Part shown: one piece after another, positions 2,754-35,270 of the stretch
How positions within the stretch are numbered: position 1 is the stretch's first letter
Layout: every line of letters begins with the position of its first letter
NCBI GenBank assembly: GCA_051362555.1
Contig: CM120641.1
Coordinates: forward strand, 28,154,401 to 28,218,400
Source: Lingula anatina
Lineage: Eukaryota; Animalia; Brachiopoda
DNA length: 64,000 bases
Direction of reading: 5' to 3'
The notes under the pieces: generated by a model
The model's database searches: none
What the model saw: the letters and a program-made list of their open reading frames with translations, nothing else
Told to the model about the DNA's origin: nothing
Translations under genes and position numbers: made by a program

Positions 2754-3310
2754 CAGGCCTACCCAACTACCAGACTCGGCACCTAAGGATCCTGAATTAA
2801 CCGGTATATCGGATCACGCTACCCGTTTTCAAGGTGTGTGTCAGATCGCATTTCGGAGTATCATACCCCAGAATAAATTTTGTAGCACGACTGCGGGCTC
2901 ATCCACGCTCGGCTGAACAACCTGAAACTGTAGGCTACTCTTACTTTAGAGTACTCTATTTTATTGTCTCTATAGGGGGATTATGGGGACTTTACGACAT
3001 TCGGTTTGAATGTTTTAACCACTTTTGATAGGGCTTTTTTGCATTGTATTAGATTAATGTGGCAGTCTTAGGTTCATCTAGGTGGCTTTCAAATTTATGC
3101 GCCCGGTTTTAAAATCATATAGCGATTTTACGACAATCGTTTACTATCCAATCAAAGTGACAGCCGAGCATGCCAGGGCTCATCCTGTCGGTGTTCTGGC
3201 TGATACTCCGAAATGCGATCTGACACACACCTTGAAAACGGGTAGTGTGGTCCGATATACCGGTTAATTCAGGATCCTTAGGTGCCGAGTCTGGTAGTTG
3301 GGTAGGCCTG
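2754..3310. mobile_element. Non-autonomous TIR DNA transposon (MITE), ~110-bp TIRs, 6-bp TSD (hAT6-like)
   Basis: 2754-2863 and 3201-3310 are near-perfect reverse complements with CAGG...CCTG ends. TCATTT lies directly on both sides (2748-2753, 3311-3316). Confidence 0.9.
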
Positions 3311-4583
3311 TCATTTGGTTCCTCGCATTTTGAGTAATCATATACTGTATTGTTCACGTGCTACACTACTGTTTGGTTCCGTTGTTCACCTTGTTCAGGC
3401 TCAAGATATGGATAGTTGAGAAAATAAATATCAAATGATAGGTTTTCGAGATTATAACTTTATAAAAACCTATTTTTCTCTCGTTTTATTTTTTGCCATT
3501 TCTGTGCCACAAATGTGAATCAGCGCAAGGAATGATAATTGTTCGAATGAACGCCGACAAGTATATCCAATGGCCTGGGGCATTGTTACTAAACTCTAGG
3601 TTGACATCATGTCAACAAAAGCAATGACACGTTGTGCCAATTATAATTTTAGGGGGAAGGGCTATGCATGGTTTCTTGCCTCAAAATTCATTATTACATA
3701 ACTGCTTTCCTTCGAAGAAAATGTAAATTTATCGTTCTTTTAATCAAAAAGATTATTAAGATAAAAAACGATGTACATATTTTAATCGTAGGTGTACATA
3801 AAATAAAGTAACGGAATTTAAGTCTCACTCTCATACGACACCCCTGCATTCAAATTGACATGTTCACGACAGCAGCACCCCCAAGCGACAGTTTCCGATT
3901 AAAATAATAGAGCGGGTAATTATGAACTTGTGCTCACTCAACAGCGGTTAGACCAACAAGGAGGACATTTTGCGTTGCACTCTAAAAATGAACAAAGGAC
4001 GCGAAAATCAACGTGCATTTCTTCGAGGAGCCGTCTTCAAAATCCACGATAACCCTACGCCGATTCCCTTACTCGCGCAGGGGACGGAATACTACGTTTT
4101 TACCGCGTTTCTGCGCAGACTCTTCGCTCCGGTAAATCTTCAATCAGCAAAACGCACTTTACCTGGTCGTCAAATAACCTTCGCAGGATTCATCGTCATC
4201 GGAAATGGAACAAGGTCCAAGTTACTGGAGATGTGCTAGTGACGCTATTTCCCACTAGCTGTCTATCTTTTCATTTCTGATTTCTGACACCTTGTTTCCC
4301 ATGTCTCCAGGCCTTGCTTTATTGTCCTTATTGCTTGAAACAAAACGCTGCGCCTGTCTGTTCACGACACACTTTTCTCGTGTTGTTGGATTTCTCTACT
4401 TAGTCTGATGGGCACTATGCGTTGGATGTTTTTTCATTTGCATTTATTTCCATGTATGTCAGTTTTCATCTTTATTTCAGGTCCGAGAAGCAGACAACAT
4501 ACACTACTAGGATAGGATTTGATACATAACGTTTCATTAACATGGTAACTTCTCACTTTCTCCTTTTTCTATCATTTCACAGA

Positions 4584-7500
4584 GTTCAGAGGAAGACAAC
4601 AACCGCTTTCCCCAGGTGATAACTAACCAAGCCACTGACCACTGACCACATGAAGATATAATTAGGCAATACGTCTCCTTAGCCACTGACCATGGGGGTA
4701 AGTAAGTAAAATAAAGGTAAGTACTCAGTAGTATTGGGTTGAGGTTACAGGGTGTAGGGAGACCGGAACTAATTTCCTTTGATTTCTCTTTCAAGGATAT
4801 GAAGATGATGGCATTAGTCAACCCTTAGACACATTTCTGAGACAGGCTGCCTTCACATGGTAATGGTTTCCCATCAGATAAAGACCAAACCCCAGCATCA
4901 ACAAATCCTAAGCCACACCCGCCAGATAGTTCACTAGGACAAGCCAATACATCTCCTCAGCCACTAACCATGGGAGTAAGTAAGTAAGATGAAGGTAAGT
5001 AGTATTTGGGTTGTTGTTACAGGGTGTAGGGAGACAGGAACTAATTTCCTTTGATTTCTTTTTCAAGGAAATGAAGATGATGGCAGTAAGCAACCCTCAG
5101 CCACATTTGTGAAACAGGCTGCCTTCACATGGTAAGGGATTCCCATCAAATAAAGACCAAACCCCAGCATCAACAAGTCCCAACCCACATCCGCCAGATG
5201 GTTCACTAGAACAAGCCAATACGTCTCCTTAGCCACTGACCATGGGAGTAAGTAAGTAAGATGAAGGTTAGTAGTATTGGGTTGAGGTTACAGGGTGCAG
5301 GTAGACTGGAACTAATTTCCTTTATTTCTCTTTCAAGGATATGAAGATGATGGCATTAGTCAACCCTTAGAGATATTTCAGAGACAGGCTGCCTTCACAT
5401 GGTAATGGATTCCCATCAGATAAAGACCAAACCCCAGCATCAACAAGTCCTAAGCCATATCCGCCAGATGGTTCACTAGAACAAGCCAATACGTCTCCTT
5501 AGCCACTGACCATGGGAGTAAGTAAGTAAGATGGAGGTAAGTACTCACTTATTGTGTTGAGGTCACAGGCTGTAGGCAGATGGGAACTAATTTCCCTTGA
5601 TTTCTCTTTCAAGGATATGAAGATGATGGCATTAGTCAACCCTTAGAGATATTTCTGAGACAGGCTGCCAGATGGGTTCCCATCAGATAAAGACCAAACC
5701 CCAGCATCAACAAGTCCTAAGCCACAACTGCAAGATGGTTCACTACGACAAGCCAATACGTCTCCTTAGCCACTAACCATGGGAGTAAGTAAGTAAGATG
5801 AAGGTAAGTAGTATTGGGTTGAGGTTACAGGGTTTATGGAGACAGGAACTAATTTCCATTGATTTCTTTTTCAAGGATATGAAGATGATGGCAGTAAGCA
5901 ACCCTCAGCCACATTTGTGAAACAGGCTGCCTTCACATGGTAATGGATTCCCATCAGATAAAGACCAAACCCCAGCATGAAGTCCTAAGCCACATCTGTC
6001 AAATGGTTCACTAGGACAAGCCAATATGTTTCCTTAGCCACTAACCATGGGAGTAAGTAAGTAAGATGAAGGTAAGTAGTATTTGGTCGAGGTTACATGG
6101 TGTAGGGAGACCGGAACTAATTTCCTTTATTTCTCTTTCAAGGATATGAAGATGATGGCATTAGTCAACCCTTAGAGATATTTCTGAGACAGGCTGCCTT
6201 CACATGGTAATGGATTCCCATCAGATAAAGACCAAACCCCAGCATCAAAAAGTCCTAAGCCACAACTGCAAGATGGTTCACTACAACAAGCCAATATGTC
6301 TCCTTAGCCACTAACCATGGGAGTAAGTTAGTAAGATGAAGGTAAGTAGTATTGGGTTGAGGTTACAGGGTGTAGGGAGACAGGAACTAATTTCCTTTGA
6401 TTTCTTTTTCAAGGATATGAAGATGATGGCAGTAAGCAACCCTCAGCCATATTTGTGAAACAGGCTGCCTTCACATGGTAATGGATTCCCGTCAGCTAAA
6501 GACCAAACCCCAGCATCAACAAGTCCCAACCCACATCCGCCAGATGGTTCACTAGAACAAGCCAATACGTCTCCTTAGCCACTGACCATGGGAGTAAGTA
6601 AGTAAGATGAAGGTAAGTAGTATTAGGTTGAGGTTACATGGTGTAGGGAGACCAAAACTAATTTCCTTTCATTTCTCTTTCAAGGATATGAAGATGATGG
6701 CATTAGTCAACCCTTAGACACATTTCTGAGACAGGCTGCCTTCACATGGTAATGGATTCCCATCAGATAAAGACCAAACTCCAGCATCAACAAGTCCTAA
6801 GCCACAACTGCAAGATGGTTCACTACGACAAGCCAATATGTCTCCTTAGCCAGTAACCATGGGAGTAAGTAAGTAAGTAAGATGAAGGTAAGTAGTATTG
6901 GGTTGAGGTTACAGGGTGTAGGGAGACAGGAACTAATTTCCTTTGATTTCTTTTTCAAGGAAATGAAGATGATGGCAGTAAGCAACCCCATGGTAAGGGA
7001 TTCCCATCAAATAAAGACCAAACCCCAGCATCAACAAGTCCCAACCCACATCCGCCAGATGGTTCACTAGAACAAGCCAATACGTCTCCTTAGCCACTGA
7101 CCATGGGAGTAAGTAAGTAAGATGAAGGTTAGTAGTATTGGGTTGAGGTTACAGGGTGCAGGTAGACTGGAACTAATTTCCTTTATTTCTCTTTCAAGGA
7201 TTTGAAGATGATGGCATTAGTCAACCCTTAGAGATATTTCTGAGACTTCACATGGTAATGGATTCCCATCAGATAAAGACCAAACCCCAGCATCAACAAG
7301 TCCTAAGCCACAACTGCAAGATGGTTCACTACGGCAAGCCAATATGTCTCCTTAGCCACTAACCATGGGAGTAAGTAAGTAAGATGAAGGTAAGTAGCAT
7401 TGGGTTAATTGAGGTTACAGGGTGTAGGGAGACGGAAACTAATTTCCTTTGATTTCTTTTTCAAGGATATGAAGATGATGGCATTAGCAACCCTCAGTCA

Positions 7501-10500
7501 TATTTGTGAAACAGGCTGCCTTCACATGGTAATGGATTCCCGTCAGATAAAGACCAAACCCCAGCATCAACAAGTCCTAACCCACATCTGCCAGATGGTT
7601 CACTACGACAAGCCAATACGTCTCCTTAGCCACTGACCATGGGAGTAAGTAAGTAAGTAAGATGGAGGTAAGTACTCACTTATTGTGTTGAGGTCACAGG
7701 CTGTAGCCAGATGAAAACTAATTTCCCTTGTTTTCACTTTCAAGGATATGAAGATGATGGCATTAGTCAACCCTTAGACACATGTCTGAGACAGGTTGCC
7801 TTCACATGGTAATGGATTCCCATCAGATAAAGACCAAACCCCAGCATGAAGTCCTAAGCCACATCCGCCAGATGGTTCACTAGAACAAGCCAATACGTCT
7901 CCTTAGCCACTGACCATTGGAGTAATTAAGTAAGTAAGAAAGATGAAGGTAAGTAGTATTGGGTTGAGGTTACAGGGTGTAGGGAGACAAGAACTAATTT
8001 CCATTGATTTCTTTTTCAAGGAAATGAAGATGATGGCAGTAAGCAACCCTCAGCCACATTTGTGAAACAGGCTGCCTTCACATGGTAATGGATTCCCGTC
8101 AGATAAAGACCAAACCCCAGCATCAACAAGTCCCAACCCACATCCGCCAGATGGTTCACTAGGACAAGCCAATATGTCTCCTTAGCCACTGACCATGGGA
8201 GTAAGTAAGTAAGAAAGATGAAGGTAAGTAGTATTGGGTTGAGGTTACAGGGTTTATGGAGACAGGAACTAATTTCCATTGATTTCTTTTTCAAGGAAAT
8301 GAAGATGATGGCAGTAAGCAACCCTCAGCCACATTTGTGAAACAGGCTGCCTTCACATGGTAAGGGATTCCCATCAAATAAAGACCAAACCCCAGCATCA
8401 ACAAGTCCCAAGCCACATCCGCCAGATGGTTCACTAGAACAAGCCAATACGTCTCCTCAGCCACTGACCATGGGAGTAAGTAAGTAAGTAAGATGAAGGT
8501 AAGTAGTAATGGGTTGAGGTTACAGGGTGTAGGGAGACAGGAACTAATTTTCTTTGCTTTCTTTTTCAAGGAAATGAAGGTGATGGCAGTAAGCAACCCT
8601 CAGCCACATTTGTGAAACAGGCTGCCTTCACATGGTAAGGGATTCCCATCAAATAAAGACCAAACCCCAGCATCAACAAGTCCCAACCCACATCCGCCAG
8701 ATGGTTCACTAGAACAAGCCAATACGTCTCCTCAGCCACTGACCATGGGGGTAAGTAAGTAAGTAAGATGAAGGTAAGTAGTATTGGGTTGAGGTTACAG
8801 GGTGTAGGGAGACAGGCACTAATTTCCTTTGATTTCTTTTTCAAGGAAATGAAGATGATGGCATTAGTCAACCCTTAGAGTCATTTCTGAGACAGGCTGC
8901 CTTCACATGGTGATGGATTCCCAGCAGAAAAAGACCAAACCCTAGCATCAACAAGTTCTAAGCCACATCCGCCAGATGGTTCACTAGAACAAGCCAATAC
9001 GTCTCCTTAGCCACTGACCATGGGAGTAAGTAAGATGGAGGTAAGTACTCAGTAGTATTGTGTTGAGGTCACAGGCTGTAGGCAGATAGGAACTAATTCC
9101 CTTTGATTTCTCTTTCAAGGATATGAAGATGATGGCATTAGTCAACCCTCAGCCACATTTGTGAAACAGGCTGCCTTCACATGGTGATGGATTCCCATCG
9201 GATAAAGACCAAACCCCAGCATCAACAAGTCCAAAGCCACATCGGCAAGATGGTTCACTAGGACAAGCCAATACAATACAATAATTAGTTGACCCTTAAG
9301 CCACATGTCTGAGACAGGCTGCTTTCACATGGTGAAGGATTCCCATCGGATAAAGATCACACACAGCATCAACAAGCCCTAAGCTACATTGACCAGATGG
9401 TTCACTTGGACAAGGCAATACGTCTCCTTAGCCACTGGCCATGGGACTAAATAGGTTAGTAGCAAGTAAGTATTTTTGGGTTGAGGTTCTGGGTTGTAGG
9501 CAGGGAGGACTACTTTCCCCCCTAATTTTTAAAGATATAGAAGATGTAACATAAAAAAACCCTTTTAGAGTGTATGCACTAATTAAGGGTATATCATGTT
9601 CCAAGCTTAATTTCCATTTCTCTTCCTATACTTTTTGTAGAATGTATAAGTTTTTAAACTTTTAGGCTACCAGCAGCAGAGACCTCAGAAATGGATAATG
9701 ACAACTCCGCAAGATGAAACATATCCATGGCACACTCTTATAGGGCTTCATAACTTGTTTTAGCAAGGTAGCAGCGGGTGGTGTTCTATTACCACTGGGA
9801 TCGATAGTGCTTTAAGGCAAGTCATTGGGAAAGCAACTATCTGAAATTGTTTACATTATTTTTATTTGGAAAAAATTGTTAGAACACATTATTACCCATA
9901 GAACTGTATATCGATCCACACTAGGCAATGAAAACAATATTTTCAAGATGTGAAGTACTGTGCCTTCTTGGCCTGATGAAACCCCAGCATTTACAGATTG
10001 ACTTGCAAAATGTCCAAACTTGGCCGGTATATACATTTACTTGTTACAAGCTTGCCATCGGTCTCCATGTTCTTTAATGAAGATATAATTTGAACTTCCA
10101 GGATAGCAAAAGAGGCTTTGCAAGAACATTTTGAATAAGTCTTGAACCTCCAAATGGAAGATGACAAGTGAAATTAAATCTCCTGACAGAAATCGACATT
10201 TAAATTGCCAAACTCCTTGACAGTGTTTCCATATGCTTATACCCACTGAATCTGTCTATATACTATCAAAATTAGATTGGGAATCAACTATAATCAAAGT
10301 AGAATAGTAATGATGTGATAAGATAACTTCATGGGATTTTTATTTAGTTTTAATATTTATTTCACAATTAGGTGTTGTTTAATTGTGGGATTGATGTCAT
10401 CTTTGCATATTGAGCATTTTTGAGATATTTTGGACCATGGATTAAGTAAAGACATAGACAGTGAGCAATACTGTAGCAATATTGGAAAGATTTTGTCAAT

Positions 10501-11750
10501 ATATCATATATTATATGCATATCTGCTTACATGAAAATCATTTTGAATTCACAAATACTTGCAAAGACAAAACATATTTTATATTGTTAAAGTATACTTT
10601 ATTTAGCTAGATGTAAGTAGGTAAGATATGATTGCATTAAGTTGAATTAGTCAAAATTTATTTTTTCACTTGCATTTGTAAACATCCTGATAGCTAAACG
10701 GGTGTAAGAGTCAATCAGTAGTTTCTTACTGGACATATGATAGAATTCCTATACTTTTATAGGATTCCAACAGAGTCCAATAGCCCAATAGGAAATTTCC
10801 GTAAGTGTCTATATGGAAATTTTGATGGAGTTGTCATGAAACATTGGTATTACCTACAGTTTTGACTGTCCACATTTCTGTCAATTTTATTGAGAGTAGT
10901 ATTTTTAAAATTTGTGCTTCTGATGACGGGGGAAATTGTTCAGAATGGCATTTGAGAAAATCGATGATCCTAGCCCGGGCCTAACCACCACCCCAACTAA
11001 CATACTCTAACCCTCTTCCTCCTGAGGAGTGCTGGGTGCACACAATCATTCCTCTGGGGAGAATTGCATGTTACTGCTTTTCAGATTTTCTCAAGTGTAA
11101 CTGAGGAATAACCACTTCATCACAAGTGTCCCTTTTTTTTTTGTTCTAGATTTGAAGTGCACTTTAAATCAAATGTGGATGGTTATTATTTTAGATTATA
11201 CCAATTAATGATCCAGAGAATTCAATAGCAACTTTAAATGTGGGTGAAGGTTATTGGTACAATTTTATAAAAAATAATTGATATCATAGTTTATGGGTCC
11301 ATGGAGGGATATGGGTTATTGCATACACATACATTAATATCACAGGTGTTATGCTAGGGCTGTTTCATAATTCTTCTAAGAAAAAGTACTTTGGCTATTG
11401 AGTTATATTGAGATGAGTTGTCATATCATGCAAAAAGTAAGATCCAGGATAAGGTTACTTTAATTGCTAAATTTTCATTTTTACTGATTATTAATTTGGA
11501 TTATAAAGCTGATAGGTAATTATATAGAGGGTTATAATTACAATATTTAGATAATATTTTTAAAGTAATTGGTACGGTCCACTGTTTTGCTTTGGAATGC
11601 TCTATCTGTAATTTTTGCAAAGTTTTAATAGAAGTAAAGGCTATGCATAAATCTTTTTTGGTGTCATTTTATATTACAAGTAGTAACTAGTAATTGGAAT
11701 GCGAAGTTACCACTTCTACCTCCAAATAAAAAGTAAGACAAAACAATGAA
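4584..11750 (+). pseudogene. Candidate decayed or non-coding spliced transcription unit containing the exon-intron array
   Basis: Acceptor-led segment 4584-4697 reads SSEEDNNRFPQVITNQATDH*PHEDIIRQYVSLATDHG in the same frame as the array exons. A phase-compatible acceptor at 9665 precedes ~32 open codons. Another acceptor lies near 11149 and AATAAA near 11725. The region upstream (~3840-4430) is CpG-rich. Confidence 0.4.
4666..9546 (+). repeat. Tandem array of ~18 units of ~271-275 bp, each resembling an exon plus an intron
   Basis: TTCAAG|GA(T/A)ATGAAGATGATGGCA (a few copies with single changes) recurs at about 4796, 5068, 5338, 5614, 5876, 6143, 6414, 6685, 6960, 7199, 7466, 7745, 8021, 8296, 8571, 8846 and 9120, with degenerate flanking copies. 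Units carry GTAAGT donors, AACTAAT, a pyrimidine tract and AG. Confidence 0.97.
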
Positions 11751-13952
11751 TTTTTCATCCCTGTGGCCTTAATATTATTGTAAAATTTGTCATTGTATGC
11801 TTTCAAAAATATCTTTAATTCCTTACCCCCCCTCCCCCCTTAGCAAAATCACGAGTCTACCAGTGTCATAACTACTACAAATGCCATGTACTGAGGTAAG
11901 TTGCAACATCATAATTTCACAATGTCTGAGAAGAATTATTTTATTAACTTGATAACATTACACATTTATAATGAACATACCCAGAATCTTTTCAAATGAG
12001 TGATGGTGGAAATGAAATTCAGCTTGAATTTTGGCAGGCATATATACATGTAAATAAATAAAACTGTTTCCCACACACATTCAGTTTGTAATTCAAAATA
12101 CAGGGAATGTAAAATATCAACTACACATTATGTGTTCAGCAGTGTTACAGTAATACCCCCTGAATATGGAGAGTTAAGACAAAAACATTGCTAATGATTC
12201 AGTCAACAATTGCAAAAAACCAAAACACCTGCATAGTAAAGAAATAGGTTTTCAAAGATGCATTGTGATGATTGCATGGATGAACAGTTATCAAATGTTG
12301 ATTAATTAGAATGGATATTTAGGTGACCTGAGCAGCTGAGGCTACGTTGAACACAGTGTACTTTTGTGACACATGACAAACAATTAAGGCCTTAAGAGTA
12401 GAATGTGCTCTATAAGCCACCAGGTTAGAACCTACCCGATTTATATTAACTGTCAATTCCCAAAAGCAACTCTTGATTTATTGAAATATTTACCAGTGCC
12501 TGATATCATTAAGGTCTAATGGCCACAACAAATTAACAGCCCATAAAGGTTATTCAAAATACAAAATTACTGTTGTTTTATTTTCTTTGCAGTTATATCA
12601 ACAGTGTTTAATACAGAAGAAAATTGCATTCCTGGACAAAGGCCGATAACAATTATTACATGCATCAGAAAATACCATTTGGTGAAAAGAGTTATGCTGA
12701 TATGGTGTTGGACAGTACCTATTTCTTAGTCTAGTCTTAGTATTGTAGAAGTGAAACACTGGCAGCCAATATATACAAACATATCCCAAAATTTACAGGG
12801 TTGATATATTGCACTTGCACATGTGGCTTAACAAAATCGCCCCATGATTGGATCACCGTACTCTGCTTTCTACGTACCAGTAAGTATCTGTTTATAAATA
12901 TAACAGACACACAGGAAAAATCAAAGCACAACCATTGCAGCAAAAATACCAGTACTTATCTACAATTCAAACATCATGTAGATTTAAATGGAATAATTAG
13001 TTGCAGCACCATGCAGATGATATATGATTCAACAGTGTTGACAAATGATGTGATTAAAATGAACATGGAATAAATTGAAAATAAGAAACATCATTTCAAT
13101 GATATGGCAATCATAGTATTCACAATGAAATAAAACCATAATTATTTTTTTATATTATCTACTGCCTACAATGACAATGTATGAGACCAAAGGAAAATGT
13201 GCCTTTCTTTAGAGTGGATAAATTTTGATTGTGTTGAAAAACTTCCAATTTCCTTCCAAAACATCATCATCCACTTCATTATATTGATTTGCATCTGGTG
13301 TCAAATTGGACCTTCATTGTGCACAATTGCCTGCTTTTTCAATAACCATTATTAGATACCCGCATCTGAAACTGACAAGTAACATTAAGACTTCATTTAA
13401 TTTTAAAGCTACCAGTATTTGTTGTCTTGTAATCACTTTTCCATCATATCATTGCCCAATGAGGGTATTATTGGGTATGTTGTTTTTACCATCTAACTTG
13501 ACAAACATACAGATGTACTGAAATGACCATTACTTAGTGTAATTGCATGGAAAGGTACTTTAATTTCAAAGATGACCTTTATTGTAGGCCTATACCAATA
13601 TATGCACCATACAAAAGATTAAATTTCCATTTACAAATTGCCAATTAAGATGATGAACAAAACCAGCGCGTCCTCATTCATGTGAGGAGCAAAAGCATTT
13701 GTTGTAGAACAGCAGGGGTATCAGAAAATATATAAATATAATTTACAAAACCAGGCTTCAATAAACTTCAATCTAGGCTTGGGAATTTCTTTTTTTTTAA
13801 TGAAGGATACAATTCTTGACCAAATACAATTGAATTCTCTTTGCATGATATTTACAGGACAATATTTTCTCAAAAACATCAAAACATGGTAAATGTACCA
13901 GTAAACTAGCTACCTTGAAAGAGCTATGCCATCAAAACCTAACCATCTCCTT

Positions 13953-14121
13953 CAGGGGCGGATCCAGAAATATTTTCTGACAGTCTTCCATACTATATTT
14001 GTTGATCCATCCTCCATTTTTTGACCGTCTTCTGACAGAAACATATAGATACCCGTCAGTGAAAACTTGAAAATCTGACCGTCTTCCGGAAGACCCAGAA
14101 GACGGCCTAAATCCGCCCCTG
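13953..14121. mobile_element. MITE, CAGGGGCGGAT TIRs, 5-bp TSD (hAT5-like), copy 1
   Basis: CAGGGGCGGAT...ATCCGCCCCTG with TCCTT on both sides. A related copy is at 19762. Confidence 0.9.
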
Positions 14122-14419
14122 TCCTTTACCACAGAATAATGCCTTGGTAAATCAGACTGAAAACGAAAAGCAAGCATTAGGATCATTACAAAGAGTTAAT
14201 CAAAAATAGATAATGATCAGATCAACTAATGACATACTGTACTAATATTAAGTTTTCATAACAGCCTTTACTTCATCATCGGCAAATATATATATATATA
14301 AAACAGGTATCCGACACAAATGTTTGTTATGTTGTGTAACTGTATTATTAAAATATTTCACTCACAAATGCATATGCTTACTTGTGTGCACACCAGCAAA
14401 CACACGTGCACACATCCTT

Positions 14420-14455
14420 GCACACACACACACACATACACACACACACACACAT
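14420..14455. repeat. (CA)n microsatellite
   Basis: Seen directly. Confidence 0.9.
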
Positions 14456-15128
14456 GCAATTCTACTTGCTGGTATCTCACTTACATGTAACCTCAATATC
14501 CAAGTTTATTTCCTATTGTTCTTTGCATTGATAGATCCTTCTTCCATGCTGATAGACCCTTGCAGTGATAAGTCCCAACACAGGTTCATCTCTCCCCTCC
14601 ATCCTCAGGTATTTTGATCAGATATGAAAATGGCCTTCAGACTAGAATCCACTCTGTTAAATGATTTTGCGAGGTGAAAATGAAAATTCCCTTATACTAA
14701 TGCTGAAAAGCACCACACTGGCTTGGCAATATAACAGTGCAGGGATGTATTGATGTGGGTATCAGTGGATACAGTGACTATCTCACTATGCTCTTCTGTC
14801 CTTGACACCAGTTTACAACAGCCAGACTCATTTTGGGGTGGTGCCTGAAAATTTTGTGAATTATTTTGTTTATTCCATGAATATTCAGTAGCTGACATGA
14901 AAACTGTGACTTTAGGAAGCTGCCCCCCCCCCCAAAAAAAAAAAAATAATAATAAATAAATAATGATAATAATAATAAACTTTTGTCCTAGCTTCTGACA
15001 ATAACAGAAATGAAATGAAAAGTACTTTACCCTCCCCCCCCCCCAAAAAAAAAAAGAAGAAAAAAAGGGAACTTAATTTTCCTATGCAACTCCTCCCATT
15101 CCTCTCACTGAAAAAGGACTGCCCACCT

Positions 15129-16051
15129 TTAGTATTTAGTATTTAGTATTAGTTTCCTTCTGCTAATTCCAGTTAATAGCAGATGTACATTGATAATAGA
15201 AGAAAAGCTGCAGTGACCTCTTAAACTTAGGATCCCTTTCTCTTCCCCTATGACATACTCAGTATACAGTAGATCTGACAATGAAACTGGTTTTTGTGTC
15301 AGTTTTTGTTCTCTAATATCTGCTGAATTTTGACAAATGAAATCTTACATGGCATGACAATGAAATTAAAAACTTGTGAAACAAATAAATGAATACATAA
15401 ATAAATAAATAAATAATGCACCTTTATCTTGGTCCATCAATTTTCGCCAACTCTGACTAAGAAGTGGCATTGATATTAATGGCCCATCAGGAGACACCTG
15501 AATAACATGTGTCATCTGCAGACCTGTCACCTCTATAGTCTTCTTCACTGATTTCTCTGCTCTGATGCCTACAAATGTGAAATATGAAGAATTATATTTC
15601 CATTAAAATTAATTCTATAAGAAATAAAATAATGAAAACGTTAAAGTTGATACAAACATTGAATAACTACTTGTTTATAAAGCATGAATTATACTTCTAC
15701 ACTTACAGGCTTTTTTGCCTCAATGTAAATTCGTACTCTGCTACATTCTTATCTCAAGTAGACTAAGTGTTTTGAGGAATAAGGCCTAACATTGAGGCAA
15801 TTTTTAGGCTCAAACAACGTACCATTAATTCTCTCCCCTGCTGTGTCCAGTTTTGATGTCTTTTTGCCTTCTGAGGACATCTTGAAAAAAACCAGATGCA
15901 ATGTTTCAAAATATACAGTAGTTCTGTTCATGCACACATGTTACACGTGTATGTATGGACTTGTTCCGCCAAGTAAAATATTAAGTGCAAATCTTTCTTG
16001 ATTTATATTTGTGCCGAGTTTAAATATGCCACTGCCAGTGTCAGTCGCCAT
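15129..16051 (-). CDS. Unannotated spliced ORF (~165 aa over 3-4 exons), unknown protein, possibly the intact 5' part of a decayed gene
   Basis: ATG in AAGATGGCG context at 16051. Exons 16051-15947 (weak donor), 15880-15823, 15568-15422 and 15322-15129 join in frame through GT-AG introns: MATDTGSGIFKLG..PYIH/MSSEGKKTSKLDTAGERING/IRAEKSVKKTIEVTGLQ..DQDK/ADIREQKLTQKP..NTKY*. Confidence 0.5.
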
Positions 16052-16775
16052 CTTGTTTACAGTAGAAACCATAAGCACTTAAACGCGCGCAGCTTTGTTA
16101 ATTACTTTTATTGCATTTATGTTCCTCTTAGTTGCTAGCAAGGTTTTAGTACTGTTATTTTGTTCCTTTTTCTCAAAATAAGCTGATATAGTAAACAGAA
16201 TTGCTCTCTGTCCAAATTTTTTGATGATAACTTGTACTAAGTACTATGCACTTCGCTGACAGAGTGCACGCCTACGAAAAAGTTGCTCGAAAATCGGTAA
16301 TGTCAACACGACTGGTCAACACGGTAAGCCAACAAAATAACTATCCATATCAGTTATTTTTCCATTTACAAAGTCAGAAGTTTGATATGTTGTTTTGAGA
16401 TTTATATTACAAGTGAAAATAATGGTTAATATAAACAGGCCCTTTTCCAATGATGCAGATTCCACACAATATTATAATTCCTTGTCCACGGTAGCACGGG
16501 CAATGATACCGACTCAAAAACCGCCTCAACTCTATAATTTGACCCAGAGTTGCAAGCTTTGTTTAGAATTTAGAGCTTGGGTTCAGACAAATCACACAAG
16601 TACACTTGAATGCAGCTGAGGGTAAACTTCCGACGAGTATTTCTTGTATACTTTATGCAACAATGGCTTTGCTACCTGTATTTTAGGATACAATTTATGA
16701 GAGAACGTCATTGATCACCCTGCAATGTAGTCCTAGGTGAAGAAAACATGGTGAGAGAACCGTGATTGAGCGAAA

Positions 16776-18867
16776 ATGGGGACAGGTAGTTCCTTCTTCC
16801 GCCACCAGGATGAAGATGATCTTGGTGATGGGGTCATTAAGCGCATTCCCATCGAGGTCAAGCCTCGTGGAAAACTGGGGCTGCGATCTGTGGGGTCACT
16901 GGGTAGGAAACCCAAAGGTGGTAGCCTTCGTTCCGCCCTGTCTGTTGATCTGGAAAACCCAGAGGTGGAGCGAATCAGGAGAGAATTTGAGATGTATCGC
17001 CTCAACAAGGAAAATGAACTTGCAAATGTGCAGAAAAAGGAGCAGAAACTTGATACTGAAAATAAGAAGCTCAGGACAGAATTACAGGCTTTACAGCAGA
17101 TGTGTCGCAAGCTGAAGAATGAAAATGATATTGCCTTAGAGGCTGAGCAACAGGCCTTGGAGAGAGCATTCACATTTGAGAATGACAGAAATAAAGTTCA
17201 AAGACAATTTAAGGTATTTTGATATAGAATAAATACATTTATTTTAACAGTGTGCTCCTTAGCTGTAATAGTTATCGTACATATATCATTACTCTGAAAA
17301 CTATTCAGTGCATGGTATTTTGCATTTACCTTGTCTGTTATTGAGGAGTTTGAGCATCAGGCCAAAACACCATTCATTAACCATTTTGAAATTAAACTAT
17401 TTGTCTTCTTAAGATGTGTTTGAAGGCCCTACAGGTGATTTATGTCAACCAAAATCTTAAATAAATTTATTTACTTTCAGATATTCAGGGAAACCAAAGA
17501 AAATGAGATTCAGAACTTGCTTAAAGCCAAGCGTGACTTAGAAAACAAGTTGTCAAGGCTGTCCCATGGTTTGATAGTGGATGACTTGGACTCTGGTTCT
17601 AGGAGGTCCAACAGTCTGGACAATTTAGGTAGGGCAATTTACCCAAGAATGCTGATAATGTAAAATCTCCTTAATGAGAGTGGTCAGTTAAAGTTTTAGA
17701 AATTATTATGTTGTTTTTATATTGGGAATGTGTAAAATTAAGTAGAGTAATGAGAGTGGTAAGTAGAAGTTTGTTGTAGAAATTATTATTTGTTTTTATA
17801 TTAGTAATGAGTAAAATTATATAGAATAATGTTGTCCATCTAGGAGGTGGTCAGTCAGGAGACTGGTGGACAAACCTGGACAGTGAACCTTCAATGGGCA
17901 GTACATTACAACTACAGACCTTCATCAACAGAGGGGGACCAGAGTTTGCCCACAGTATTGTAGAGCTGGACGGACCATTCACAAATGTCACTAAAGGTAA
18001 AAATGAACATTTTAAAGTATTTCAGTACTAAAATATGTCAAAATTTTCCTTTTTTTTTTGAAAATACAGATAAGTGGATGAAACTTATTGAAATAAAAAC
18101 ATCAATAATTGGATATTTTTGATATGCTGCTGCTATATAATTCAATTTAAGTTTGACAAAATGTATCAGCTCATATGCAGGAAAGTTATCTTTCAGATGA
18201 CTGGAATGCTGCAGCAGCAAGCTTGGCTCAAGTCACTCCCATTCTCCCAACTCAGCCAGTCAAAAATACCATCAGGGTCTACATATGTGCCAGCAAGGAC
18301 ACACTGGATGAAGTAAAGCTTTTCAAAAGGGTGAGTGTACAACATATATCTGTTGTAACAGAAGATTATGCTGTGTATTGAACTTGCAAGAATTGTTTTT
18401 TAATGCATTGTCTAATGATTTTAGTGTCAACGCAGTAACAGTAGAAAATGTATACAATGGCAAAATCTACATTTGCATTTGAAAATTTACGTTATGACAT
18501 AGTCTTTTTTTCTTGGGTTTGTTTACAGTCATAATTAGATCTCATATTTTACTTAAAAATTTATGCAGTGACATATATCAATTGAATATGATTTTTTATA
18601 TTTTCTCTTTTTTACACAGGAGCATGTTCCTGATCTTGATAGACTGGTCTCAAGTGAAGGCAGGTCCCTGGTTGTAGTACATATTCAACAGGAGGATGAC
18701 ACACTCCCTGTATGTACTTTACCTAAATTCGTACAATAAAAAGACATATTTTCCCCTTAAGTATTCTTTTTAGTTAATGTGAGATTTCCATTTTATGTTA
18801 AAAGTGTCTTGTCACAAACATTTACAAGACTTAGTTTCAAAGTTATGAAAATAGTGCCCCTGTTCCT

Positions 18868-18898
<31 letters not shown>

Positions 18899-21800
18899 TT
18901 TTTTTTTTTTTGGGGGGGGGGGGGGGGACTTTTTATGCATTATGGGGATTTCACTTATAGTTTAAACTTTCCCAAAATCATTGCTTGACTTTTTTCTGCA
19001 TGGAACATTCCATTCCCCTGCAAATGTTGTTTGCCCCCCCCCTCCACACACACACACACACACATGCGCCTGTGCGCATACACACAAAATTATCTTATAT
19101 GTTGGTAGGTTGTCTAGTGTTTTGTAACAAATGTCTGAGGAGCAGACTACTTCATTTTCAAAGAATTCATAAAAACCTTCATGCACCAAAATAATTTTCA
19201 GTGACCTTTTTATTGATAGATGTTTGTTTATTTGTTTCAGATCAACATAAAACTGTTGTCTGGAGTCAGTTGCCAGGTAGCGGAATGCACCATATTTCTA
19301 GGTTTCCTTGGAAATAAAATAAACAAGTAAGATGCAAGAAAGAGATTCCCATTTTCTCTCAGCTAATTTATCAGTTTAAACATACAATTGCAAGTATGCA
19401 AACTGTTTTACTTTAACATATTAGATTTTATTTCAAATATTGTTACGTACAAAGGTCATGTGAACTGTTCTCAAATGATATGGTAGATGTTTGTGATATG
19501 ATTTTAACACATATTTATTGCAAGCCATGTCTCCTTTAAAAAAATAAAAAATTAGCACTTTATCTCTGTTTATCTAGACTAACTTTTGTTGCTTTTCCCA
19601 CTTTTATTAGGCTAGCTGAAGAGGCAGTGAATGTGTTCCTCAACTGTGATAATCAAAAATCAACAAGTGCAATATTTTGCTTCAAAGCTCCGGGTCCCAA
19701 GGGGTGAGTCTTCACTCAATCACAGGGGATGTGCTAACGTTAACTTAGGTTATAATTGTTTCAGGGGCGGATCCAAAGATATTTTCTGAAAGTCTTCCAA
19801 ATTATCTTTGTTGATCCACCCTCCATTTTAACCATCTTCCGACAAAAAACATTAGATACCCGTCAATGTAAACTTAAAAATCTGATCGTCTTCCAGAAGA
19901 CTCAGAAGACGGCCTAAATCCGCCCCTGTGTTTAGTTTGATTTTTTAGCTTACTGCCTTATTTGGACAGTATTTTACAGTGCCTTAATTTCAGGCATGTA
20001 TCAGCTGTTACATGTTTTTAATGGTAATAGCACAATTATATTTACGGAGGTAGAATTTTGATTCCAAAGTTTTCTTACTGTATATGTCACTCCTCACATC
20101 ACTTTGTTGGAAGATCTGAAAGAGGGATCACTGTGTCTCTCATAGTAAACTTGTATATGCTAAGAACTTGAGATCAAAGTCTTGTGCCAGTAGTGAATAT
20201 TGCACCTTATTCTCACTGGAGGACAAGAACCTCCCTCCTCTCTCCCCCCCCTCCCTCCCCTCTATGAACATTTGCTAACAGCTTGCTTTTTTCTCTAAAG
20301 GGTCACCCCTGAAGTGGAACAGATGAAGTACGATATAAGCAGTAAATGCTCTGGTGCTAAGATACATGAGAACTATGATAGTGCAGAGGATGGTGCGAAA
20401 TGTGCTTATGTTGACATCAAAAGTATTTTAAAGATGGTGAGTATGGTTTGAATTGATTTATCTATTTGTAGCTATTCATAATCTTATTGAGGATCACAAG
20501 GTGTACATAGTGTTGGGCAGATCCTCTCAAGAGGTTACAACTTTTGTAATATTCTCATTATTTCTAAAAGTTAAACTAAAAGTCGAAGTTCTTGTTTTAA
20601 GTAACCTGCTGCAATTTATATACTACAGTTGGAAGTGCATTTTTCTTCACAACAATAAGTTTTCTTGTAGTCTTGTATATACTGCATCGGTATTAATAAA
20701 ATATCTCAGCAGACTGGACGTTTGATTATTTTTGAGTTTTTTTGTTCATATATATTTGGAAATAATTGTATCAACAGAAGATTTATATTGCAGGAATTGG
20801 GTATGGACCAGGATCACTCTGATGCAGATTCAGGGTTCTCAGAAAATGGCGGCCCTGAGCAGCTATGCGGTGGGCTGTGGGATGTACATGGCCAGTTTGA
20901 GCAGATTGAGGCCTTGAACTATGCACTGAGTTCCAACTGCCAAATGGGGTTTGAAAAAGTAATTTAAGACTTATAACTATATGATTAATTGAATGAATAA
21001 AAATAAAGGCTTTGTTTGTAATAGAGGCCCTTATTCCAGCAGGATATTAGCAGTTTAAAAACACCATATTACTGTAGGCATTAAAAAGAATAAATAAACA
21101 CCATGTCAAAAATTTGGAAGGGTGTTTTATGTTGGCTTGATATAAAACTTTTATCTTTTGTTTCGAAATCCATGCAAGATATAACCACATAAATAAGGCC
21201 ATGTTGTTTCAGTACTATGAAAGACTGAACACTCACGTCCAGTCTGCTGGACCACTCCCACCGCTGCTGATCTCTGGAGGCTCTGGGCTAGGGAAGTCTC
21301 TGCTACTAGCTAAATGGTAATGTATGAATTATGAAATATGTGTATATATTGTAAATATCTTTAAATCATTTTATCCCATCATCTGCATTCAGTAGGAATG
21401 TTTACCTGAGAAAGTGGTTAGTAATGAGCATCTCATATGTGGGGCTCTTGGTTGTATTGGCAAATAATTTACCCTGGTATATTAAATTAGAGATACATTT
21501 AATAGACAGTTTTTTACTTGAAAGAAAGTCCAAAAATCTCTACTCGTCTGACATTTGCATTATGTGTACATGAATATGTTACCATAGAAACCTGAAGTTT
21601 TCCATTTCCTCTGCAACTTGGGAGAGAAGGATAATAACATTTCATGATAATTAGTACCACCAGCGTATACGCTGGCGGTACTCATGGTTTTAGTCCTGAC
21701 CCGTCTCGTACAGCTCCGCCGGCTCCTGCGGCTCCGCCGGCTCCTGCGGCTCCGCAGTCGGGCGCCGGAAACAAGTCACCGTTACCGCTTCTCCTCCTAG

Positions 21801-24800
21801 ACCGCCAGGACCTGTGTCCCCATCTCTTGGATTTAGGTAACATATGATCTCAACTTGAACACCCTGGTTTTTTTGTCTCTGTCGGTGCATTGGCCTGGGC
21901 GTGACACTTGTTGAAACGCACCCTTGTCAAAATTTTTGAAAATTCAAGGCTAAATATCTCCCAAACCAAAGGAATTATGGGAAAAATTACCACAGAAGCC
22001 TGACCGAAAGTCATATCTGGAGATTCCAAATATGCCCTGGGATTTGACTTTTGACCTTTTTTTCAAGGTCAAACAAGCCAAAATTTTCTAAAAATGGGAA
22101 TTTTCTGCAAAAAAATATTTGTTTGTGCTATTTTTTGGAAACTACACAGATCTGAGCTCTCCTGTTATAGTGAGGGGTTACAATTGGGGACTCCTTTCAT
22201 CTTTGGGAGTTTGGGGTCAATTGGTGCATTTTCACGGGAGAAGCAGCCATTAGATACCGAAACTGAAAACTTGCTTTTATTCTGGAATGGTAAATGCCAG
22301 AGACCTTTTGTTCCTTGCATTTTGTAAAACTTGTCAAGTGCAATACTGGAGGTGGTGTCCATTTTTTTGTTTTAGATATGGTTTAGGCATTGCGCTATAT
22401 CAAAAATTACAACATCGCAATATTCAGTGGGGAAAATGTTAAATATTCCAAAATTACCAGAGATATGCCCATAGTTACTATTGAACTTGAATAGGAAGTC
22501 ATATACTGGTAATCTAACTGTGACCTTGAAATTGACCTTTGACCTACCTTTCATGATGAACTGCACTTTGAAGTTTTCTGATCTTTATATCTCCAAAACT
22601 GGCAAAGATATGCCCATAGTTACTATTGAACTTGAATAGGAAGTTATATACAAGTAATCTAACTGTGACCTTTAAATTGACCTTTGACCTACTTTTCACC
22701 ATGAACTGAACTTTGCAAATTTTATATCCCTTATATCTCCAAAACTGGCAGAGATACACCCATAGTTACTATTAAACTTGAATAGGAAGTCATATACTGG
22801 CATTCTTATTGTGACCTTGAAATTGACATTTGACCTACTTTTCAACATCAGCTGAACTTTGCAAATTTTTTTATCCCTTATATCTCGAAAACTAGCAGAG
22901 ATAGGTCCAAAGTTACTATTGAACTTGAATAGGAAGTCATATACTGGCAATCTTACTGTGACCTTGAAATTGACCTTTGACCTACTATTTATGATGAACT
23001 GCACTTTACTTGTTTCCTGGCCTTCATATCTCCAACATTGGCAAAGAAATGCCCATAGCTACTATTGAACTTATATAGGAAGTCATATACTGTGACCTTG
23101 AAATTGACCTTTGACCTACTTTTTATCACAAACTGAACTCTGCATATTTTCTTGCCCTTCATATCTTCAAAACTAGCAGAGACCTGCCCAGTGTTGTCCC
23201 TAGGTTTTCTCTTTTGTCAGCATACCGGTATATGCAATACTGATAATGCATTTCAAGGAAAACCAATAGGCCTATTGCCAAGAAAATCACAGGAGTGATC
23301 AGTGTTAGGAAAATACAGGTCAATTTGAACATCTCCTTGATTGGACCATTTTAACTGTTATGTTTTTTTGATTTTTTTTTTTTTTTTTTTTTTTGCATAT
23401 TTTGAGAACTCTTGTTTATTGCATTTTATAGAGCTTGTCTAGCACAAGACTGGTGGTAGTGTCCAATTTTTTTTTTTGGTGGGGGGGGGGGCATACGAAT
23501 GCGCTTACTCCAGCTGGTGGTACAATATCCAGAGGCGGTATCGCCTCTCTGATCCTCTAGTTCTTTGAATGATTTCTAAAATGTTACTAAGTAATTGAGA
23601 ATATATGTTGCATGTTAAAAATTCTAATTTTGCAATTTGCAATCATCAAATTTGCAGGTTAGAACTGCTGCAGGACAAAGCCGAATCATCAGGAACCTTA
23701 ATTTTGTACCATTTTGTGGGCAGCCAAGACTCCAGTTCTGCTGATCCTATACAAATGACAAGGAGACTGACAGCAAAGGTAATACAAGGCTAAATTTTAA
23801 TATATAATACATGATATTTTTAATAGTTGATTTACTATATAAAAGTTAAATATTTAGTCATGAAGGATTTACACACAAGTAATTGGTACAATACATTTTA
23901 TAAAAATCTCACAAGGCCTTTTTGAATGGGCTGTCATGTGGTGTACTGCCAAAGATGATACCGGGTTGCTCTGTGATTGGAGTCTGCAAGATGTTAATTG
24001 TGTTCAAACAACCTTCTTCAAGCTTTATGTAATTTCATTTCTCTGATGCCTGTCCTTAAGAACTGTCTGTTTTATTTTATCCAATAATTTTCTGTCCACT
24101 GTCTGTATAGTTAATGCAGTATGTGTCATCCCCACCAACACTGACCTGTGACCCATCGCGTTTAGTGGAGGAATTCCCTCGTTGGCTTGAAAAGGTGTCC
24201 TCAAAACTACCTGGAGGTGTGGTGCTGGCTCTGGACTCTGTTGACAGATTCAGGGTATGATAGACAATAAGTTGCAATCAGAGATTCTTCAAACAACATG
24301 CTTGGAAGAAAGTGACTTGTGAGACATTGAAATATTAGAGTGGTAATATCTATGATTTAAAGCAACTCTTATATATATTACTTACAAAACATTTTCTAGT
24401 AAATATAAACAATTCATGTTGTTCAAATTTTCAAAAGTAATTACCATAAATGCTGTTATATGTTGATTTTGACAATATCTCAAGGGGGAATTTTCTGTTT
24501 CATTTTTTAAGCAAGGAGAACATCACCTGAAGTGGCTTTTAGATCCATTACCAGTGGACTTCAGAGTTGTTGTGACAGTACATGAAGACACTTGTCCTCA
24601 GTCGTGGAGGTGATAGTTGTTAGAAATAGTTGTTAGATGTCCTGTACAACTGAAGTAACATAAATATCTTCTTGAAATGTGGCTCTGATATTATAGATAT
24701 TTATGTGCTGGATACTTTATGAAATATTAAAAAACTAGAATTTAATGCATGCTACAGGCCAGTAGTATTTTCCTCCTTTATTTACATTTTTTGCTCCCAT

Positions 24801-33800: not shown

Positions 33801-35270
33801 TATAATTGCAGCACATACAATAAAGCACCCAAATATACTTAGATATGGACACATCAGATTATATAAATGTCAAAATTCTAAATGACAACGATTTACAGCC
33901 TCCCGGGAATTCCTTTCCCTTTACGCTCTTTGTCGTGCTGGCGGTCCACGCAGCATGTATTTCAAAACAAGTTGTCTGCAAATTAACCACGATTTTGCAC
34001 CTTCAAGTTCCGTGTCACGTTTTCATATCATGTGCCTATTATTTCTACAAGTATTCTCTGCCCAAAATGCGTAAAGAAGAAATGTCATCTTACCATGTTG
34101 TTTGAAAAACTGCTTTTTTCTCAGAGTCCATTTCTTCTCTCCCGTTTACCTCCACCTAAAAATGACCACTCAGCTTTACATCTTACACCACTACACGTCA
34201 CTTCCGGCACAATTCTGACCAATGCTGATCTTCTCCGGTACCCTTTATTAAATGTTTCAAACACTGCACAAATTTGAAAATAAGTTTTGGGTGAAAAGCT
34301 ATATCTATACACATTAACAATATCTGTCAATTTTTCTCATAGAAAAGTTTTGTATCATTGCACAGAAGCAACAAATGTTTGTTTTCTTGCCCTTTAAATT
34401 TATACTGCAAAGGATAAAACTACAGGGTTGTCAGCTACCACTCAATAATAATTTTCTTATTTAAAGAATTAATGGGAAAAAAAACAGTGTATGTAAAATT
34501 CCAAATTTTTCCCATTAGAAGATTGAGTCAATACCATGTCTCAGCATGTAGCCCAACACCTATCTGAATCAGTAAACCTACTTAACTGACTAGTGGGCTT
34601 TTATCTGTATTTTTTTCTTTGCTGAACTAAAATAAGATTGTCATAATGCAATTTACTTTGTTTACTTCAGGGAGATTTCGAAACAGCAGCCAAGCTGTAC
34701 AAGAGAGCCACTGAAATTAAGGAAGGAGAAATGCTGAAAGGTTCAGGAAGAAGTTCCAGTGAGGAAACTGCATCAACCATGAAAAATGGGGTGCAGAGGT
34801 AGTTTAGTCATATTTGCAATATTACAACTGCAATACCGAACTGCTGGTAAAGTACATCACTGCATCAATGCTGTCTGTGTAACTATAATTAATGTTGGAT
34901 TATGGGACACTTGTCCGCTCTCACTCAAATCAAAAAAAGCCATCAGTCATTGTAAATGGCTGTTGCCCATGTTGCGCAATCCTGGGACAGGAATTCGAAG
35001 ACTGATGCATGTTGGGGCGCTCTTGGATGAGCTCATGACTGGGTGACTTGAACCTACTTTTCAAGGTCATAGTTTTGCTGCTGATCACATTTTCTATGCA
35101 GAGATCTTCTTGCTCATCAAAATCTTAAATTGATGACAGGTGTTTTTATTCTTAAAGAAACATGCATGACATCCATGATTTACACACTACCTAACAGGCT
35201 TATTTGATATTTCAGCAAACATGGAGTTATGCAACAAAGTCGTTTGTCATCGCAATCAGGCACTGCTTAG
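16776..35270 (+). CDS. NPHP3: Nephrocystin-3 (multi-exon)
   Basis: N-terminal MGTGSS myristoylation motif; coiled coil [23 protein letters not shown]; P-loop [16 protein letters not shown] (~21270); HFVG and LKWLLDPLP motifs; C-terminal TPRs ([42 protein letters not shown]). Exons with GT-AG boundaries, e.g. 16776-17213, 17481-17628, 17844-17996, 18197-18330. Stop at 35270, or near 34802 if the last intron is retained. Confidence 0.92.
19762..19928. mobile_element. MITE, CAGGGGCGGAT TIRs, 5-bp TSD (hAT5-like), copy 2, in an NPHP3 intron
   Basis: Same family as 13953-14121, with TGTTT on both sides. Confidence 0.9.
21652..23560 (+). mobile_element. Non-autonomous Helentron/Helitron2-like (HINE) element with internal ~146-bp tandem array, copy 1
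   Basis: 5' GTACCACCAGC with adjacent palindromic partner; CGGCTCC(TG/GC) mini-repeats; about five 146-bp units (~22450-23180); 3' GCTGGTGGTAC (23513-23523); hairpin AGAGGCG-GTAT-CGCCTCT; CTAG end followed by TT. Confidence 0.8.
27634..27657. repeat. (TA)n microsatellite
   Basis: Seen directly. Confidence 0.9.
29376..29722. mobile_element. hAT-like MITE in an NPHP3 intron
   Basis: 14-bp TIR CAGACATGCTGAAA...TTTCAGCATGTCTG, subterminal (C)CGGACC/GGTCC repeats, imperfect 6-bp flanks GGCTTG/TGCTTA. Confidence 0.75.
31139..33191 (+). mobile_element. Non-autonomous Helentron/Helitron2-like (HINE) element with internal ~146-bp tandem array, copy 2
   Basis: Same termini, GC mini-repeat, 3' GCTGGTGGTAC (33144-33154), hairpin and CTAG/T-run as copy 1. 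About six units at ~32127-32998. Confidence 0.8.
33598..34301. mobile_element. Probable degenerate TIR element in an NPHP3 intron
   Basis: CpG-richer block. AACTTATTTTCA near the left end is inverted as TGAAAATAAGTT near the right end. No clear TSD. Confidence 0.35.

What the first reader, a model, noticed from the sequence alone, without database searches (positions are those of the whole stretch)
4666..9546. Satellite-like array whose monomer is a whole exon plus intron
Seen: a full unit is AG|180 nt|GTAAGT..., then a G-rich stretch, branch-like AACTAAT, TTCCTTTGATTTCTTTTTC and AAG. The 180 nt forms a symmetric phase-1 exon reading (G)NEDDGSKQPSATFVKQAAFTW*GIPIK*RPNPSINKSQATSARWFTRTSQYVSSATDHG, in frame with the unique exon-like segment upstream. 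All three + frames contain stops shared by nearly all copies, yet splice signals are kept in about 17 units. Inference: the amplification happened after coding loss (an exon turning into a satellite), or this is a spliced lncRNA built from ~18 repeated modules.
Basis: partly seen in the sequence, partly recalled or inferred. Interest (0 to 1): 0.8.

Follow-up and report, generated by a model that had tools for sequence, protein, structure and literature searches.

The report
Unspliced exon-intron tandem array in Lingula
In the lamp shell Lingula, a 271-base unit that looks like one exon plus one intron is repeated about 18 times in a row and is weakly transcribed, but in the samples tested the RNA runs straight through the supposed introns, so it is likely a leftover exon-intron piece copied into a tandem repeat inside a mostly unspliced non-coding RNA, not a gene of 18 spliced modules.

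Summary
The array is real: 4667-9536, about 18 copies of a ~271-bp unit, 7 kb upstream of NPHP3 in Lingula anatina. Each unit has a 180-nt exon-like part and a 90-100-nt intron-like part (GTAAGT...CTAAT...AAG); all three + frames carry stops and no protein relative was found. Of 8 RNA runs laid, 4 had + strand reads on the unit, and none listed a joint at the predicted junctions, where roughly 6-30 per run were expected if fully spliced. Reads cross the introns unspliced, while NPHP3 junctions were detected in the runs. Transcription is weak. Branch point and acceptor are unchanged in 17 of 17 units, but significance is marginal (P about 0.04-0.06). Best reading: an exon-intron relic of a non-coding or long-dead gene, amplified by unequal crossing-over inside a weak, mostly unspliced RNA, likely held and degraded in the nucleus. 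Splicing in an unsampled tissue is not excluded. The scan noted similar arrays on other DNA (e1-9569091, e1-9814498; unchecked). Interest low.

The parts
4667..9536 (+). Tandem array, ~18 copies of a ~271-bp unit; two interleaved unit types, no higher-order period
4796..4975 (+). Exon-like part of unit 1 (180 nt; stops in all + frames); further copies start at 5068, 5338, 5614, 5876, 6143, 6414, 6685, 6960, 7199, 7466, 7745, 8021, 8296, 8571, 8846, 9120
4976..5067 (+). Intron-like part of unit 1: stacked GTAA repeats with 2-4 GTAAGT sites per full unit, G-rich middle, CTAAT, pyrimidine tract, AAG; retained in the RNA reads
   Evidence: reads
9120..9536 (+). Degenerate 3' edge: unit 17a, 147-bp duplication 17b (79% to consensus), first donor lost, acceptor decayed
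4481..4697 (+). Diverged 5' edge copy (inferred): 64-nt exon-like piece ending ACATG|GTAA as in the monomer, 38-nt GT..AG piece, 115-nt exon-like piece with one TGA
   Evidence: 64-nt piece: 5 and 20 of 1000 shuffles reach the score; chosen after the fact
3800..4250 (+). CpG-rich stretch (o/e 1.36) with the most upstream + strand reads; likely promoter region of the transcript (inferred; no start site mapped)
   Evidence: depth up to 2 at 3840-4175 in X1 and X4

Best explanation
A 271-bp unit with exon-like and intron-like signals is repeated about 18 times, is weakly transcribed on the + strand and is read through without detectable splicing in the RNA runs that cover it; it is likely a relic exon-plus-intron of a non-coding or long-dead gene that was amplified by unequal crossing-over. 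Shown: the array, its signals, stops in all frames, + strand RNA from many units, read-through of the intron-like parts. Inferred: (1) origin from a once-spliced exon-intron; (2) growth by unequal crossing-over and conversion, with the oldest copies at both edges; (3) one transcript from the CpG-rich stretch at ~3800-4250 through the array; (4) poor splicing because of the short intron, the AAG acceptor and 2-4 overlapping donors (the effect of overlapping donors is recalled, not sourced); (5) the unspliced RNA, with 51 GTAAGT sites, would be held in the nucleus and degraded, as shown for human RNAs with intact 5' splice-site motifs (PMC9074902, abstract read), which would explain its low level. 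No function is required.
For: Unspliced read-through: the only joint on the unit is 4997->4727 (goes back 271, one whole unit; X1 2 reads, X4 7); depth at intronic 4788 vs exonic 4798 is 8 vs 8 (X1) and 21 vs 25 (X4); all 3 loose-end rows continue as genomic array sequence. In one search no joint is listed in 8950-9540 for X2 or X3, though GT..AG joints of NPHP3 are (3, 3, 1, 4 reads at 17211->17479; 35, 25, 1, 13 at 17625->17841). About 7-9 (X1), 24-30 (X4), 8-10 (X2) and 6-7 (X3) junction reads were expected under full splicing (rough). Strand: first mates on -, as for NPHP3. 36 of the 40 variant letters shown (34 further rows not shown) occur in window units of both types. Level: 0.3 and 1.7 reads per kb per million; depth per copy is close to that of the unique flank. 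CpG o/e falls from 1.36 to 0.16 at the array, like NPHP3 promoter 0.92 to body 0.25 (proxy described in PMC8330077, passages read). Turnover: units 2 and 9 differ only by a 31-nt deletion, near-identical 210-310-bp blocks at varied offsets, no lag periodicity. Intron-like anatomy in 6 of 2000 shuffles.
Against: Branch motif and acceptor are intact in 17 of 17 units while 85 of 271 columns vary; three of the seven invariant runs of 7 or more columns fall on donor, branch point and acceptor. P is 0.004-0.015 for 14 sites but this is inflated by realignment within the GTAA repeat; without the donor it is 0.044-0.064. A pure relic should not keep them. In X3 intronic depth (2 at 9099) is well below exonic depth (9-11), which could hide some splicing. 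Only ~6% of runs X1-X6 was read, joints under 3 reads are not listed, tissues are unknown, and the whole array was never laid at once. No ancestral spliced copy was found, so the origin is inferred from motifs alone. Repeats are also methylated, so CpG loss does not prove a gene body. Copies elsewhere in the genome could supply the reads (not testable).
Confidence: 0.55

Rival explanations
1. A spliced lncRNA of ~17 repeated 180-nt exons that is made and spliced in a tissue or stage not sampled here (for example germ line); the reads seen are leaky or nascent RNA.
For: Branch motif and acceptor intact in 17 of 17 units, first GT in 16 of 16 full units; exon-like part slightly less variable than intron-like part (49 of 180 vs 36 of 91 columns; pi 0.082 vs 0.096); promoter-like CpG stretch and strong acceptors at 4481 and 4583 upstream; signals are on the transcribed strand; X3 intron depth low. 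Tissue-limited splicing with U1-type silencers exists (P-element IVS3, PMC4647562, search listing only).
Against: No listed joint in 4 of 4 runs with sense reads, three of them poly(A) libraries; in X4 at most 2 reads per joint against ~24-30 expected; conservation P only 0.044-0.064 without the donor; no snoRNA or miRNA in the introns to give a reason and no unusual folding (z +0.9, -0.2, +0.3).
Confidence: 0.2
2. An ordinary tandem repeat whose splice-like motifs are coincidental (a GTAA microsatellite next to a T-rich run); it was never an exon and the reads are background transcription.
For: The donors are a GTAA microsatellite; AAG acceptor and 90-100-nt length are atypical against 22 NPHP3 introns; no splicing seen; very low RNA level; GT+AG alone invariant with P 0.22.
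Against: Donor, branch motif 24 nt from the 3' end, tract and AG in the right order and on the transcribed strand in 6 of 2000 shuffles (post-hoc rule); exon-like pieces with good splice sites also flank the array upstream; transcription is strand-specific and above the near-zero depth at 9562-10173.
Confidence: 0.17
3. A decayed protein-coding gene with repeated symmetric phase-1 exons (mucin- or matrix-protein-like), amplified around the time it lost its frame.
Confidence: 0.08

Closest known systems
SNORD115/SNORD116 host transcripts and rat Bsr/RBII-36 (PMC3413130, passages read)
   Same: Non-coding transcription unit made of tandemly repeated exon + intron units.
   Different: Those are spliced and each intron releases a box C/D snoRNA; here no splicing was seen, the 90-100-nt intron-like part has no Rfam match and no box C motif, and the unit is only 271 bp.
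Firre lncRNA with the exonic local repeat RRD (PMC4820808, passages read)
   Same: A local repeat within a non-coding locus; the repeat may act as a nuclear retention signal (shown for RRD, only inferred here).
   Different: RRD copies are separate spliced exons (7 of 13 human exons), conserved across mammals and with tested function; here copies are head-to-tail, unspliced in the samples tested, with no known homologue or function.
Human F7 IVS7 37-bp VNTR minisatellite (PMC1557585, search listing and start of abstract only)
   Same: Tandem repeat that multiplies a splice signal because its unit spans an exon-intron boundary.
   Different: F7 repeats only the donor inside a working protein-coding gene; here donor, branch point, acceptor and a whole exon-like part are repeated and no host coding gene exists.
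RNAs with intact 5' splice-site motifs retained by U1-70K/ZFC3H1 (PMC9074902, abstract read)
   Same: Poly(A) RNA that keeps unused 5' splice-site motifs (51 GTAAGT in the array) and is of low abundance.
   Different: Shown in human cells for intronic polyadenylated transcripts and reporters; localisation and decay were not tested here and the pathway was not checked in Lingula.

Membership tests
Repeated exon-intron snoRNA/miRNA host gene (SNORD115/116 host, Bsr) | Tandemly repeated exon + intron unit in a non-coding transcript | tested here: inconclusive
   Anatomy and + strand transcription present, but exon status not shown
Repeated exon-intron snoRNA/miRNA host gene (SNORD115/116 host, Bsr) | Units are spliced | tested here: not met
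   No joint listed in 4 of 4 runs with sense reads; other tissues untested
Repeated exon-intron snoRNA/miRNA host gene (SNORD115/116 host, Bsr) | Small RNA encoded in each intron | tested here: not met
   No Rfam match in the array at E<=1; no box C or Sm motif; no stable fold; small-RNA libraries not examined
Firre-type lncRNA with exonic local repeats | Repeat confined to one locus | not testable with these tools
   No genome held; no other copy within the 64-kb window
Firre-type lncRNA with exonic local repeats | Repeat copies are exons of a spliced, nuclear RNA with function | tested here: not met
   Unspliced; localisation not testable
Local tandem array / VNTR-type repeat | Head-to-tail copies with turnover by unequal exchange | tested here: met
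   ~18 copies at 86% matches; mosaic near-identical blocks and decayed edges
Local tandem array / VNTR-type repeat | Copy number varies between individuals | not tested
   No DNA runs were laid
Satellite DNA (high-copy) | Hundreds to thousands of copies in long arrays | tested here: not met
   4.9 kb, ~18 copies in this assembly; collapse of a longer array or other loci not excluded
Pseudogene of a repeated-exon protein gene | Homology to an intact protein | tested here: not met
   only 2 of 6 frames went to the large protein searches, and short queries are weak
Retrozyme (tandem hammerhead monomers) | Hammerhead ribozyme in each monomer | tested here: not met
   No Rfam hit; CTGA.GA core 0 times on +, 3 on - over ~18 units

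The most novel reading that the evidence does not exclude
The array is a splicing-switch lncRNA: in most tissues its stacked donors keep it unspliced, nuclear and scarce, while in one tissue or stage all ~17 mini-introns are removed to give a ~3-kb RNA of near-identical 180-nt modules, with selection holding branch point and acceptor in every copy although the introns carry no small RNA.
Probability: 0.15. Interest if true: 0.6.

Novelty: new member of a known kind. Interest (0 to 1): 0.25.

Why it matters
As it stands it is a local tandem repeat with splice-like signals in a weak non-coding transcript, a useful caution that well-formed, copy-wide splice signals need not be used. If a tissue were found where it is spliced, it would be a compact invertebrate example of a lncRNA built by tandem exon-intron duplication without intronic cargo, and a natural test of how overlapping donors switch an RNA between retention and export.

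Tried and rejected
Whole-genome search: none held, so other copies and an intact ancestor in the same genome were not searched. Sequencing-run index: no RNA holder listed; this is no evidence either way. Array as NPHP3 5' UTR or intron: rejected; NPHP3's upstream exon ends at 16322, a - strand spliced gene lies between, and depth is 0 in all 4 runs at 11092-11703. Alternative junctions (internal donor ACATG|GTAA at unit position 64; AAG|GTAAGT at intron position 20): no joint listed, and the second is not conserved (3 of 9 sites vary). Protein homology: Pfam, 7 translations, only DUF4389 at E 0.052; word-index searches of two frames among longer proteins, 0 of 3 and 0 of 12 candidates at E<=1; HMMER gave 2 hits, a 7652-aa Cyanophora repeat protein (best stretch 25 residues) and a 549-aa repeat ORF, which I judged by inspection to be weak matches summed over repeats. 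Rfam on 3800-17000: 2 sub-threshold hits, both outside the array. Two patterns in metagenome contigs: 0 matches each. Older sub-repeats inside the exon-like part: not above shuffles. Higher-order repeat: none (lag divergence 0.077-0.093). Literature: no paper on this locus appeared in the listings (terms with 'Lingula anatina'); one search gave no source for inhibition by overlapping donors, so that step is recalled. Earlier scan notes near this place or on this sequence: none. No supplements were read.
Full report
Setting. The window is from an animal: the first coding exon at 16776 is 100% identical over 146 aa to nephrocystin-3-like of the brachiopod Lingula anatina, and that protein maps exon by exon to 16776-34799. 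A single-exon rhodopsin-family receptor lies on the - strand at 99-1199. No whole genome is held.

Observation. TRF finds 17.0 copies of period 275 at 4667-9274 (86% matches) and a 147-bp duplication at 9137-9421; with decayed edges the array spans 4667-9536, about 18 units. Seventeen TTCAAG|GA sites, 239-279 bp apart, mark every unit, each preceded by CTAAT and a pyrimidine tract. The exon-like part is 180 nt in 10 of 16 full units; the intron-like part is 90-100 nt and begins with a GTAA microsatellite giving 2-4 GTAAGT sites per full unit, 51 in all. The first donor is GTAAGT in 15 of 16 full units and is lost in the last copy. All three + frames have stops in all 16 units. An intron-like arrangement arose in 6 of 2000 shuffles on the + strand, 16 of 2000 on either, and in 3 of 199 real windows (rule written after seeing the unit).

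How the array evolved. Pairwise differences run from 0 to 39, two unit types are interleaved, units 2 and 9 are identical but for a 31-nt deletion, near-identical blocks of 210-310 bp recur at varied offsets and there is no higher-order period. Edges are the most diverged: 17b is 79% identical to the consensus, and the 'unique' upstream segment is a diverged copy (score 74 against a best shuffle of 48; its 64-nt piece ends ACATG|GTAA at the same distance from its acceptor as in the monomer, 5 and 20 of 1000 shuffles). This is the pattern expected of unequal crossing-over and conversion (inference). The differences between copies argue against an assembly artefact, but copy number was not checked with DNA reads.

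Coding origin. No support. Pfam gave nothing better than E 0.052; two frames read through with X found no relative; HMMER's 2 hits are unrelated repeat proteins. Short queries are weak, so absence is not proof.

RNA test. Nine raw RNA runs of the same species label were offered; I laid 8 of the 9, four on each of two stretches that hold one to two units, at 85% likeness so that reads from all units pile up. On 3600-5010, X1 (poly(A)) gave 18 reads, X4 80, X7 and X9 none. Nearly all first mates lie on -, as for NPHP3 in runs of the same two studies, so the RNA is + strand, the strand of the splice-like signals. The only joint is 4997->4727, a step back of one whole 271-bp unit (2 and 7 reads), which is unspliced read-through. 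Depth at intronic 4788 and exonic 4798 is 8 and 8 (X1), 21 and 25 (X4); the three loose-end rows continue as array DNA. On 8950-18100, X2 and X3 (poly(A)) gave sense depth 8.1 and 6.4 in the first bin, X5 none, X6 0.8 antisense; no joint is listed in the array, while NPHP3 joints are (16322->16686, 17211->17479, 17625->17841). Full splicing would give roughly 7-9, 24-30, 8-10 and 6-7 junction reads in X1, X4, X2 and X3 (from approximate depths); joints under 3 reads are not listed. Against my reading: in X3 intronic depth at 9099 is 2 against 9-11 in the exon-like part (X2: 9 against 13-16); the intron copy laid there is a divergent type and may lose reads at the cut-off, but some splicing cannot be excluded. 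Only about 6% of X1-X6 was read and tissues are unknown.

Source and level of the RNA. 36 of the 40 variant letters shown (34 more rows were not shown) occur in window units of both types, so many units are transcribed; the other 4 may be alleles, extra copies or alignment offsets. If all reads come from this array the level is 0.3 (X1) and 1.7 (X4) reads per kb per million, and depth per copy is near that of the unique flank at 3840-4700 (up to 2). CpG o/e is 1.36 at 3800-4250, 0.16 in the array and 0.23 beyond, like NPHP3's 0.92 and 0.25, which fits a promoter followed by a methylated body (proxy per PMC8330077, passages read; repeats are methylated too). The array is not part of NPHP3: its upstream exon ends at 16322 and a - strand spliced gene lies between.

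Are the signals under selection? 85 of 271 columns vary. The 14 donor, branch and acceptor sites are invariant in the alignment (P 0.004 hypergeometric, 4 of 270 circular shifts, 0.005 base-matched), but the donor realigns within the GTAA repeat and unit 12 in fact reads GTAATT. Without the donor P is 0.047, 12 of 270 and 0.064. This is a marginal hint and the main reason to keep the spliced rival alive. No intronic small RNA was found and neither part folds better than shuffles. The intron-like part is shorter than all 22 resolved NPHP3 introns and AAG ends 2 of those 22 (one gene only).

Mechanism. Best reading (0.55): an exon-intron piece of a non-coding or long-dead gene was amplified in tandem inside a weak + strand transcript that now stays mostly unspliced; its unused donor sites would hold it in the nucleus for decay, as for human 5' splice-site-motif RNAs (PMC9074902, abstract). 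Origin, cause of splicing failure and retention are inferred. Rivals: spliced lncRNA in an unsampled tissue (0.20), coincidental motifs (0.17), decayed coding gene (0.08).

Comparison. It resembles the repeated exon-intron hosts of SNORD115/116 and Bsr (PMC3413130, passages) and Firre (PMC4820808, passages) in layout, but fails their defining tests here (splicing, intronic small RNA). It meets the description of a local tandem array that multiplies splice signals, like the F7 IVS7 minisatellite (PMC1557585, listing only; lead taken from earlier scan notes). Earlier notes describe like arrays in other genomes; they are unchecked and are not support. No paper on this locus appeared. Verdict: real feature, new member of a known kind, interest 0.25.

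Noticed in passing
window ~12000-16060, - strand: A spliced gene divergent from NPHP3: CT..AC joints 15567/15822 (4, 2, 1, 3 reads) and 14156/14485, with a covered 3' stretch at 12010-13539 in X6. Short open frames only; identity unknown.
   Followed up: partly
window 15950-16400: CpG-rich (o/e 0.92) shared promoter region; GTTGCTAGCAA near 16132 looks like an RFX X-box and GCCATCTT near 16048 like a YY1 site (motif names recalled). NPHP3 has an upstream exon ending at 16322.
   Followed up: partly
window 13953-14121: A ~170-bp element with inverted ends that collects thousands of divergent RNA reads from both strands with unrelated flanks: a high-copy MITE-like repeat.
   Followed up: no
window 22443-23190 and 32129-32997: Two arrays of the same 146-bp repeat (5.2 and 5.9 copies) inside NPHP3 introns.
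   Followed up: no
window 8016-8874, - strand: One - strand frame is open for 102 aa across whole units 13-15; no Pfam match for the first.
   Followed up: partly
window 5149, 7010, 8377, 8652: AATAAA occurs in four units of one type (and at 4710), possible internal polyadenylation signals; no read-end pile-up was listed.
   Followed up: partly
window 2755-2865 and 3188-3320: An inverted repeat pair around ~350 bp (seen by eye), possibly a MITE.
   Followed up: no
window 38300-63400: Exon-like frames that resemble CDC6 (-), CWC22 (+; MIF4G match) and TSC2 (-); gene names recalled from the translations.
   Followed up: no
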